Virus record (IMG/VR): IMGVR_UViG_2675903425_000013
Reading direction: 5' to 3' (one strand)
Length of the DNA stretch: 7,084 nucleotides
Origin: a virus
Lineage: Duplodnaviria > Heunggongvirae > Uroviricota > Caudoviricetes
In this document: piece after piece, positions 3,092 to 3,466 of the stretch
Numbering within the stretch: the stretch's first letter is position 1
How the letters are laid out: each line of letters begins with the position of its first letter
Translations under genes and position numbers: made by a program
Notes under the pieces: generated by a model
What the model saw: the letters and a program-made list of their open reading frames with translations, nothing else
Told to the model about the DNA's origin: nothing
Database searches by the model: none

Positions 3092-3466
3092 ATGGCAAAA
3101 GATCTGAAAACACTGGCGCTGGCCAGACTGTCGGGGTTCCGTCATAAAACGGTGAAGGTGCCGGAATGGAGAAATGTCAGCGTGGTGCTGCGGGAGCCTT
3201 CGGCAGAGGCCTGGTATCTGTGGCAGGAAGTGCTCAATGGTGATGGAGAGGATGACGATACCCTGTCGGTGGTGGCGAAAACCCGCCGTAACCTGGAAGC
3301 GGATGTGACGCTGTTCTGCGATGTCCTGTGTGATACTGACCTGCAACGGGTGTTCACTCCGGACGACCGTGAGCAGGTGCTGGCCGTCTATGGTCCGGTA
3401 CATGCCCGGTTGCTGCGTCAGGCACTGGAACTGATCGCTGATGCAGAGTCGGCCAGAAAAAAGTAG
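3092..3466 (+). CDS. Tail assembly chaperone (lambda gpG analogue)
   Basis: 124-aa acidic ORF between the major tail and tape measure genes. Ends ...ESARKK with stop TAG 3464-3466 immediately after the slippery heptamer. Confidence 0.8.
   Translation: MAKDLKTLALARLSGFRHKTVKVPEWRNVSVVLREPSAEAWYLWQEVLNGDGEDDDTLSVVAKTRRNLEADVTLFCDVLCDTDLQRVFTPDDREQVLAVYGPVHARLLRQALELIADAESARKK

What the first reader, a model, noticed from the sequence alone, without database searches (positions are those of the whole stretch)
3442..3466. Compact programmed -1 frameshift cassette (A_AAA_AAG) joining the two tail assembly chaperone ORFs
The slippery heptamer at 3457-3463 is the last feature of the G frame before its TAG stop. 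The -1 frame opens only 15 nt upstream (TGA at 3439-3441) and continues for 104 codons. The downstream ORF has no Shine-Dalgarno of its own. This matches the conserved G/GT translational frameshift of long-tailed phages and implies a fixed low ratio of GT to G. The fusion is easily missed by automated annotation.
Basis: partly seen in the sequence, partly recalled or inferred. Interest (0 to 1): 0.45.

Follow-up and report, generated by a model that had tools for sequence, protein, structure and literature searches.

The report
Known phage tail-chaperone frameshift site
This is the well-known programmed -1 ribosomal frameshift that makes a long-tailed phage's G and G-T tail assembly chaperones in a fixed ratio; this exact sequence, from prophage Sp9 of E. 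coli O157:H7 Sakai, was measured at about 7% frameshifting in a 2013 paper, so it is real but not new.

Summary
G (3092-3466) ends ...GCC AGA AAA AAG TAG. A_AAA_AAG lies at 3457-3463 in the G frame. The -1 frame is closed by TGA at 3439-3441 and then runs 104 codons to TAA at 3769-3771.

- G belongs to the HK97 gp13 chaperone family (PF06222; PDB 2OB9). The -1 segment is a lambda-type T domain (PF06223). The pair sits between the major tail and tape measure genes.
- T lies in the -1 frame of G in 172 of 176 related loci. All 79 distinct junctions among them keep an A_AAR or A_AAC lysine/asparagine slip codon at the homologous place.
- The stretch between the G stop and the annotated ATG shows codon-periodic conservation, so it is translated.
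- ATG 3490 has no Shine-Dalgarno sequence.

It is already known. Window 263-7084 is identical to Sakai prophage Sp9, and G is ECs1801. Sharma et al. 2014 list that gene as a true frameshift case. Antonov et al. 2013 tested window 3437-3511 exactly and measured 7% +/- 0.79 frameshifting in E. coli.

Public annotation still shows T as a stand-alone ORF. I found no convincing RNA stimulator. The adjacent stop codon may help, but that is untested.

The parts
3092..3466 (+). Gene G, the tail assembly chaperone (124 aa). It is ECs1801 of Sakai prophage Sp9 and is the product of standard translation.
   Evidence: ORF list. PF06222 Phage_TAC_1 at 2.3e-61 over full length. PDB 2OB9, deposited as 'Tail assembly chaperone', at 1.8e-46. 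Identical to ECs_1801.
3457..3463 (+). Slippery heptamer A_AAA_AAG in the G frame. Two tRNA-Lys can re-pair from AAA-AAG to AAA-AAA one base back.
   Evidence: The same motif is found at the homologous place in 48 of 79 distinct junctions.
3464..3466 (+). TAG stop of G, directly 3' of the heptamer. It overlaps the first -1 frame codon, GTA (Val). It may act as a 'shifty stop' stimulator (inferred).
   Evidence: A stop directly follows the slip site in 53 of 79 distinct junctions.
3439..3441 (+). TGA that closes the -1 frame upstream. The T frame has no start codon between this stop and ATG 3490.
3463..3771 (+). T segment read in the -1 frame after the slip (102 aa, VARPEIRFLM...AAMS, then TAA). 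GT is 3092-3463 joined to 3463-3771, giving 226 aa.
   Evidence: PF06223 Phage_tail_T at 6.8e-19. phrog_14766, a 224-position fused 'tail protein' profile, matches G at profile positions 1-122 and T at 122-222. Fusion built and aligned.
3490..3492 (+). ATG that PGAP and GenBank use as the start of a stand-alone 93-aa 'tail assembly protein T'. It most likely encodes an internal Met of GT.
   Evidence: No Shine-Dalgarno sequence (-3.5 kcal/mol). The codons upstream are conserved as protein.
3437..3511 (+). The 75-nt stretch identical to the insert tested by Antonov et al. 2013, which gave 7% +/- 0.79 frameshifting in E. coli.
   Evidence: Exact match. Paper Table S2.
3469..3494 (+). Weak interrupted 9-bp hairpin that starts 5 nt after the heptamer. 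At most a mild stimulator.
   Evidence: dG -7.3 kcal/mol, z -0.64. 62% of cells pair across relatives against 39-51% for slid controls, with little covariation. RNAalifold predicts no consensus structure.
3498..3517 (+). GC-rich hairpin inside the LALRLGR codons, 34 nt after the heptamer. Not a credible stimulator.
   Evidence: Fold. No pair shows changes on both sides. Its 3' arm lies partly outside the tested 75-nt insert that still gave 7%.
2370..3086 (+). Major tail protein gene with a C-terminal Ig-like domain. It forms the upstream boundary of the G/GT pair.
   Evidence: phrog_158 at 1.3e-116 and Ig_2/Ig_3/I-set matches. Annotation.
3824..6904 (+). Tape measure protein gene (1026 aa). 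It forms the downstream boundary and is the expected binding partner of the G domain.
   Evidence: PF06120, PF20155 and PF09718. phrog_339.

Best explanation
This is a programmed -1 ribosomal frameshift of the lambda G/GT (HK97 gp13/gp14) kind.

Most ribosomes translating G read AGA AAA AAG and terminate at TAG 3464-3466, giving the 124-aa chaperone G. A minority slip back one base on A_AAA_AAG (3457-3463). The single E. coli tRNA-Lys pairs better with AAA than with AAG. Those ribosomes then read GTA GCC CGC..., giving the 226-aa fusion GT, whose C-terminal 102 residues are the T domain.

By analogy with lambda, G and the G part of GT coat the tape measure protein. The T part recruits the major tail protein. 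Neither protein ends up in the virion. The frameshift rate fixes the GT:G ratio.

What is shown: the sequence anatomy, the family membership, the conservation of the arrangement, the coding signature upstream of the annotated ATG, and a published 7% frameshift for this exact 75-nt sequence in E. coli.

What is inferred: that the shift is ribosomal rather than transcriptional in this phage, that the native ratio is near 7%, and the assembly role of GT.
For: (1) Anatomy.

(2) Family and position: G matches PF06222 at 2.3e-61 and T matches PF06223 at 6.8e-19, between the major tail and tape measure genes. G matches PDB 2OB9 (deposited as 'Tail assembly chaperone') at 1.8e-46. Lambda T falls in the same Pfam family.

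(3) Homologues HK97 gp13/gp14, HK544 and KS9 are annotated by their authors as -1 programmed frameshifts.

(4) T is in the -1 frame of G in 172 of 176 loci, and the 4 exceptions are indels. The 79 distinct junctions among the 172 all carry an A_AAG, A_AAA or A_AAC A-site slip codon at the homologous place; 58 of them are canonical X_XXY_YYZ heptamers.

(5) In 44 distinct sequences where G stops right at the slip site, the stretch between that stop and the annotated ATG varies with codon periodicity. Entropy by codon position is 0.63, 0.90 and 1.48. Pro at +4 is kept in 43 of 44, and Phe-Leu is invariant with synonymous changes. No start codon exists upstream in that frame. KS9 lacks the ATG altogether.

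(6) ATG 3490 has no Shine-Dalgarno sequence: -3.5 kcal/mol in the window, family median -1.7, and only 2% of junctions at or below -6 against 21% of the coding background.

(7) Window 3437-3511 equals the tested insert, which gave 7% +/- 0.79. ECs1801 is listed as a true case in Sharma et al. 2014, and the window is identical to Sp9.

(8) Reviews describe A_AAA_AAG as among the most shift-prone heptamers in E. coli, and give a lambda G:GT ratio near 30:1 that is required for tail assembly.
Against: No junction peptide or native GT band from this prophage was available to me.

The reporter assay cannot tell ribosomal slippage from transcriptional slippage, because both give the same protein.

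The bare heptamer gave only 0.29% in another reporter. Something in the context must therefore contribute, and I could not identify it with confidence.

The Met codon at 3490 is kept in 85 of 86 distinct junctions, so some independent T synthesis is not excluded.
Confidence: 0.93

Rival explanations
1. T is made on its own. Ribosomes start at ATG 3490 (the PGAP annotation) or ATG 3562 (the Sakai ECs_1802 annotation), perhaps by re-initiating after terminating at TAG 3464-3466. On this view the heptamer is incidental.
For: Public records annotate it this way. The Met codon is present in 85 of 86 distinct junctions. In the Burkholderia, Bordetella, Achromobacter and Serratia groups the G stop overlaps it as cTGATG, a typical coupling arrangement.
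Against: There is no Shine-Dalgarno sequence, and SD-like sequences are depleted there relative to background. The nine codons upstream of the ATG are conserved as protein in a frame that has no start codon. KS9 has CTG in place of ATG. The tested insert produced a GST-MBP fusion at 7%, which requires a frame change rather than re-initiation. Authors of the HK97, HK544 and KS9 records annotate the fusion.
Confidence: 0.04
2. The fusion arises by transcriptional slippage. RNA polymerase adds one extra A in the A6 run (3457-3462), and standard translation of that mRNA gives the same R-K-K-V-A... protein.
For: The protein product is identical, so the reporter assay of Antonov et al. does not exclude this. 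Homopolymer length does change in some relatives (L017, L059, L162). Some relatives carry 7-8 A.
Against: The run here has only 6 A. Documented programmed realignment generally needs 8-9 or more (Antonov et al. text). Of the 79 distinct junctions, 26 have no A-run longer than 4, such as G_GGA_AAG, G_GAA_AAG and A_GCA_AAG, yet they keep the same architecture. The motif is always in the same phase with the G frame, which matters for ribosomes but not for the polymerase.
Confidence: 0.03

Closest known systems
Phage HK97 gp13/gp14 (tail assembly chaperone and its -1 frameshift extension), with HK544 and other Hendrixvirinae
   Same: Same two protein families: PF06222 for G and PF06223 for T. G is about 61-63% identical. 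Gene order and the -1 frame are the same, and the slip is at the homologous Lys codon, followed by V-x-x-P-x-x-x-F-L-M.
   Different: HK97 has the non-canonical G_GAA_AAG, and G continues for 5 more codons. The window has canonical A_AAA_AAG with the stop directly adjacent. HK97 also carries the gp15 moron between T and the tape measure gene; the window keeps only a terminator-like hairpin there.
Phage lambda G/GT (Levin, Hendrix and Casjens 1993; Xu, Hendrix and Duda 2004, 2013, 2014, as cited in PMC5009743)
   Same: Same mechanism and logic: a low-level -1 shift near the end of G sets the G:GT ratio (about 30:1 in lambda). The T domain is in the same Pfam family. Same genomic position.
   Different: The heptamer in lambda is G_GGA_AAG, with the G stop 5 codons further on. 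Lambda G belongs to another Pfam family, PF06894, with no detectable pairwise similarity. The measured rate for this cassette is 7%, against about 3-4% for lambda.
E. coli dnaX and IS911/IS3 A_AAA_AAG frameshift cassettes
   Same: Same heptamer, same tRNA-Lys slippage, same host translation machinery.
   Different: Those cassettes use an upstream SD-like element, a strong downstream hairpin or pseudoknot, or both, and reach 4-50% or more. Here there is no SD-like element and no convincing conserved structure. The only adjacent feature is the stop codon.

Membership tests
G/GT tail assembly chaperone frameshift of long-tailed phages (lambda G/GT paradigm) | The two ORFs lie between the major tail protein gene and the tape measure gene | tested here: met
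   Major tail 2370-3086, G 3092-3466, T to 3771, tape measure 3824-6904
G/GT tail assembly chaperone frameshift of long-tailed phages (lambda G/GT paradigm) | The downstream ORF overlaps the end of G in the -1 frame and has no translation start signal of its own | tested here: met
   The overlap is 22-25 nt. There is no start codon before 3490 and no Shine-Dalgarno sequence.
G/GT tail assembly chaperone frameshift of long-tailed phages (lambda G/GT paradigm) | A slippery sequence, correctly phased in the G frame, lies inside the overlap | tested here: met
   A_AAA_AAG at 3457-3463
G/GT tail assembly chaperone frameshift of long-tailed phages (lambda G/GT paradigm) | The arrangement and slip site are conserved among homologues | tested here: met
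   T is in the -1 frame in 172 of 176 loci. All 79 distinct junctions among them keep an A_AAR or A_AAC slip codon.
G/GT tail assembly chaperone frameshift of long-tailed phages (lambda G/GT paradigm) | A frameshift product is demonstrated experimentally | tested here: met
   Published reporter result for the identical 75-nt sequence: 7% +/- 0.79 (PMC3711429 Table S2). The native GT protein from the prophage was not examined.
G/GT tail assembly chaperone frameshift of long-tailed phages (lambda G/GT paradigm) | GT is needed at a low ratio to G for tail assembly, and both are absent from virions | not testable with these tools
   Known for lambda (review PMC5009743). Here it is an inference from homology.
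HK97 gp13/gp14 protein family (PF06222 + PF06223) | G matches Phage_TAC_1 above the Pfam gathering score over its full length | tested here: met
   205.6 bits against a cut-off of 25, protein residues 1-124 on profile positions 1-124 of 124. PDB 2OB9 at 1.8e-46.
HK97 gp13/gp14 protein family (PF06222 + PF06223) | The -1 frame segment matches Phage_tail_T above the gathering score | tested here: met
   68.5 bits against a cut-off of 25.9. Lambda T matches the same model.
Stimulated -1 frameshift cassettes of the dnaX/IS911 type | SD-like element 6-17 nt upstream of the heptamer | tested here: not met
   The best duplex in the 20 nt upstream is -3.0 kcal/mol, and the family is not enriched over background (24% against 21%).
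Stimulated -1 frameshift cassettes of the dnaX/IS911 type | Stable, conserved hairpin or pseudoknot 5-9 nt downstream | tested here: inconclusive
   Only a weak hairpin: -7.3 kcal/mol, z -0.64. There is no consensus structure. Pairing across relatives is partial, 62% against 39-51% for slid controls. Sharma et al. report a ddG of 0.020 +/- 0.023 kcal/mol/nt for this cluster.
Programmed transcriptional realignment | Homopolymer run of about 8-9 or more | tested here: not met
   The run has 6 A. Many relatives have no long run at all.

The most novel reading that the evidence does not exclude
The stop codon directly after the slip site may be the missing stimulator, and the true minimal signal in this family may be A_AAG_UAR. 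With Lys-tRNA on AAG in the P site and a slowly decoded stop in the A site, the tRNA slips back one base (a 'shifty stop').

This would account for three things:
- The natural 75-nt cassette gives 7%, while the bare heptamer gives 0.29% in another reporter.
- 53 of 79 distinct junctions have the stop adjacent.
- All 14 distinct junctions with a non-re-pairing first triplet (A/G_GCA_AAG) have the stop directly adjacent.

A second, smaller possibility is that the nearly invariant Met at 3490 also allows a little free T to be made.
Probability: 0.3. Interest if true: 0.3.

Novelty: already known. Interest (0 to 1): 0.1.

Why it matters
For biology it adds little. The G/GT frameshift has been a textbook recoding case since 1993 and 2004. 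This very sequence (ECs1801, Sakai prophage Sp9, also present in many Stx-converting phages) has been catalogued and measured at 7%.

Its practical value is for annotation. At least 1,246 complete E. coli genomes and 92 phage records carry this cassette. Those I inspected show T as a free-standing 93-aa or 69-aa ORF. The 226-aa GT protein is absent from a 15-billion-protein collection. A rule keyed on PF06222 followed by PF06223 in the -1 frame, with an A_AAG slip codon, would correct these records.

The family survey gives a clean set of natural variants for asking how much the adjacent stop contributes. These include non-canonical heptamers, different distances to the stop, and one permanently fused GT.

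Tried and rejected
- Downstream stimulatory structure. Single-sequence folds of four stretches around and after the heptamer gave z-scores of only -0.6 to -1.8. RNAalifold on 27 diverse relatives predicted no pairs. The GC-rich hairpin at 3498-3517 shows no covariation and lies 34 nt away. The weak hairpin at 3469-3494 is only partly kept. I do not claim a stimulator.
- Upstream SD-like stimulator: absent in the window and not enriched in the family.
- Independent initiation of T: rejected as the main route.
- Transcriptional slippage: rejected as the main route because of run length and family variants.
- Pairwise BLASTP of the window's T and G against lambda T and G found nothing. The link to lambda T rests on the shared Pfam model.
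- NCBIfam gave no hit for the fusion.
- A literature search for this frameshift in Stx phage papers found nothing. The decisive papers turned up through the frameshift-motif literature instead.
- Structure prediction and the large protein searches were not run, because they would not change the verdict.

Full report
**Observation**

I read window 2900-3900 and listed the ORFs. G runs from 3092 to 3466 (124 aa) and ends GCC AGA AAA AAG TAG. In that frame the heptamer A_AAA_AAG occupies 3457-3463, and TAG 3464-3466 follows at once. In the -1 frame, TGA at 3439-3441 is the last upstream stop, so the frame opens at 3442. It runs to TAA at 3769-3771, which is 104 codons counted from the heptamer. 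The predicted fusion is 226 aa with the junction ...SARKK|VARPEIRFLM....

AAAAAAG occurs once in the window. That count is not unusual by itself (0.65 expected). However, it is the only X_XXA_AAG heptamer in the window. It is also the only in-frame heptamer that sits at a gene end and opens a long -1 ORF.

**What the genes are**

- G matches Pfam PF06222 (Phage_TAC_1) over its whole length at 2.3e-61.
- The -1 segment matches PF06223 (Phage_tail_T) at 6.8e-19.
- A PHROG profile of fused 224-position 'tail proteins' (phrog_14766) matches G with its first half and T with its second half.
- G matches PDB entry 2OB9, deposited as 'Tail assembly chaperone', at 1.8e-46.
- HK97 gp13 falls in PF06222. 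Lambda T falls in PF06223. Lambda G belongs to a different family, PF06894.
- The pair lies between a major tail protein gene with an Ig-like C-terminal domain (2370-3086) and a 1026-aa tape measure gene (3824-6904).
- Upstream lie the head-tail adaptor, head closure, HK97-gp10-like and tail terminator genes.

**Source of the window**

The region is 100% identical to Stx2a_WGPS8 and 99.4-99.8% identical to BP-4795 and phage 1717. It occurs in 92 phage records and 1,246 of 5,426 complete E. coli genomes, with up to 7 copies per genome. Window 263-7084 is 100% identical to prophage Sp9 of E. coli O157:H7 Sakai, where G is ECs_1801.

**How it is annotated**

PGAP and GenBank records give G, plus a separate 'phage tail assembly protein T' of 93 aa starting at ATG 3490. 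The Sakai record starts T later still, giving 69 aa. The exact 226-aa fusion is not among about 15 billion public proteins, whereas G and the 93-aa T are each on at least 1000 contigs. In contrast, the curated records for HK97, HK544 and Burkholderia phage KS9 annotate the homologous pair as a joined CDS made by a -1 programmed frameshift.

**Comparative test**

I collected 14 phage loci by tblastn. Using a GT alignment, I added 80 loci from different bacterial species and 80 IMG/VR contigs.

- T is in the -1 frame of G in 172 of 176 loci.
- The four exceptions are indels: an upstream indel in L016, an in-frame fused GT in a Symbiopectobacterium symbiont (L017), and A-run length changes in L059 and L162.
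- The 172 loci give 79 distinct junction contexts, all with a Lys or Asn slip codon preceded by A at the homologous position.

| Heptamer | Distinct junctions |
|---|---|
| A_AAA_AAG | 48 |
| A_AAA_AAC | 4 |
| G_GGA_AAG | 4 |
| A_AAA_AAA | 1 |
| G_GGA_AAC | 1 |
| G_GAA_AAG (includes HK97 itself) | 7 |
| A_GCA_AAG | 7 |
| G_GCA_AAG | 5 |
| A_GAA_AAG | 2 |

The last four rows are non-canonical: only the A_AAG part can re-pair. The G stop follows the slip site directly in 53 of the 79 contexts. Close relatives of the window vary at flanking bases but never in the heptamer.

**Is the stretch before the annotated ATG translated?**

I took 44 distinct sequences in which G stops right at the slip site. 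In these, nothing else codes for the next nine codons.

- Mean entropy by -1 frame codon position is 0.63, 0.90 and 1.48.
- Pro at +4 is kept in 43 of 44, with a free third position.
- Phe-Leu before the Met is invariant, with synonymous changes.
- That frame has no start codon upstream of 3490.
- KS9 has no ATG at that place at all.

This is what a frameshift fusion predicts. It does not fit a start at ATG 3490.

**Start signals and stimulators**

The best anti-SD duplex upstream of ATG 3490 is -3.5 kcal/mol. The other seven gene starts checked in the window give -5.8 to -12.8. Across the family the median is -1.7, and only 2% of junctions reach -6 against 21% of the coding background. Upstream of the heptamer there is no SD-like element either (-3.0; 24% against 21% background).

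Downstream, single-sequence folds are not better than shuffles (z from -0.6 to -1.8). RNAalifold predicts no consensus pairs in 27 relatives. The GC-rich hairpin at 3498-3517 has no covariation and lies 34 nt away. A weak hairpin starting 5 nt after the heptamer (3469-3494, -7.3 kcal/mol) is only partly kept (62% paired against 39-51% for slid controls).

**Prior knowledge**

- The review by Atkins et al. 2016 (PMC5009743) describes the lambda G/GT shift, its roughly 30:1 ratio, the roles of the two domains, and its wide conservation. It also notes that A_AAA_AAG, G_GGA_AAG and the tetramer A_AAG are the shift-prone motifs of E. coli.
- Sharma et al. 2014 (PMC4066793) list cluster A_AAA_AAG_25, 'ECs1801, tail assembly chaperone; [true]'. 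They equate it with GeneTack cluster #10 and found no hairpin better than background (ddG 0.020 +/- 0.023).
- Antonov et al. 2013 (PMC3711429) tested two genes of this 'Phage_TAC' cluster in a GST-MBP reporter in E. coli. [quoted passage not shown] GTC TGG, which is window 3437-3511 exactly. It gave 7% +/- 0.79. A G_GGA_AAG relative gave 6%.

**What remains open**

The bare A_AAA_AAG heptamer gave 0.29% in the Sharma reporter, 4.3% with the IS911 stimulators and 39% with the IS3 pseudoknot. The assays differ, but the natural 75 nt seem to carry about 20-fold stimulation with no recognisable SD or strong structure.

The adjacent stop codon is the obvious candidate, by the classical 'shifty stop' effect. 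It is adjacent in 53 of 79 junction types, and in all 14 GCA_AAG junctions, where the first tRNA cannot re-pair. This is an inference and was not tested.

The reporter also cannot separate ribosomal from transcriptional slippage. I consider the latter unlikely for three reasons: the run has 6 A, many relatives have no long run, and the motif is always phased with the G frame.

**Verdict**

The feature is a member of a well-known family. This very sequence has been catalogued and measured, so it is already known and of low interest. Its value lies in showing a systematic annotation gap and in providing natural variants for studying the role of the adjacent stop.

Noticed in passing
window 1-378 (N run at 213-262); L177 21756-22288: The 3' part of the portal gene carries a 162-bp (54-aa) tandem repeat: 3.3 copies at 95% match in Sakai Sp9. 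In the window a 50-base run of N interrupts it, so TRF finds nothing. The two flanks align to Sp9 with different offsets, so copy number may differ or the N run may not keep length. Related records call this portal gene frameshifted or a pseudogene.
   Followed up: partly
window 3781-3808: A terminator-like hairpin (AAAACCTGC-TGTG-GCAGGTTTT) followed by a T run lies between T and the tape measure gene (dG -12.5, z -2.39). HK97 and HK544 have an annotated rho-independent terminator at the same relative place, after the gp15 moron. The window seems to keep the terminator without the moron.
   Followed up: partly
L015 (HK97) 1835-1841; L003, L005, L006: The reference phage HK97 and its close relatives do not have a canonical X_XXY_YYZ heptamer in the gp13 frame. 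The site is G_GAA_AAG (CGG GAA AAG), where the P-site tRNA-Glu could re-pair to GGA only through a G-U pair.
   Followed up: partly
L017 1201-1782 (Candidatus Symbiopectobacterium endolongispinus): G and T are fused in one continuous frame (...AEIAKKKVTQPGMQFLM...). This prophage copy would make only GT and no free G. It may be decay in a symbiont genome or a homopolymer sequencing error.
   Followed up: no
L059 (Serratia sp. L9) and L162 (IMG/VR contig): T lies in the +1 frame of G because the A run at the slip site differs in length. This could be a homopolymer sequencing error or real indel variation at the slippery run.
   Followed up: no
L007, L036, L038, L043 (Klebsiella and Raoultella prophages): The junction reads GCA AAG TAA AAATG. 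Only the A_AAG tetramer can slip, and an ATG in the T frame lies directly after the stop. These phages may rely on a different balance of slippage and re-initiation.
   Followed up: no
window 3490-3492 and homologous positions in 85 of 86 distinct junctions: The Met of the F-L-M motif is almost invariant although it has no Shine-Dalgarno sequence, and SD-like sequences are depleted upstream of it. In several clades the G stop overlaps it as TGATG. Whether this reflects structure or a minor free-T product is unknown.
   Followed up: partly
window 2241-3086 against 2370-3086: Records disagree on the start of the major tail gene. NC_049944 uses GTG 2241, which overlaps the tail terminator gene. 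PGAP uses ATG 2370, which has a strong Shine-Dalgarno sequence (-10.3 kcal/mol). The protein carries a C-terminal Ig-like domain.
   Followed up: no
window 3824-6904: The tape measure gene encodes 1026 aa here and in Sakai Sp9. The otherwise identical tail modules in CP022689 and Stx2a_WGPS8 have a 3243-bp gene, about 1080 aa. This suggests tail-length variants among these prophages.
   Followed up: no
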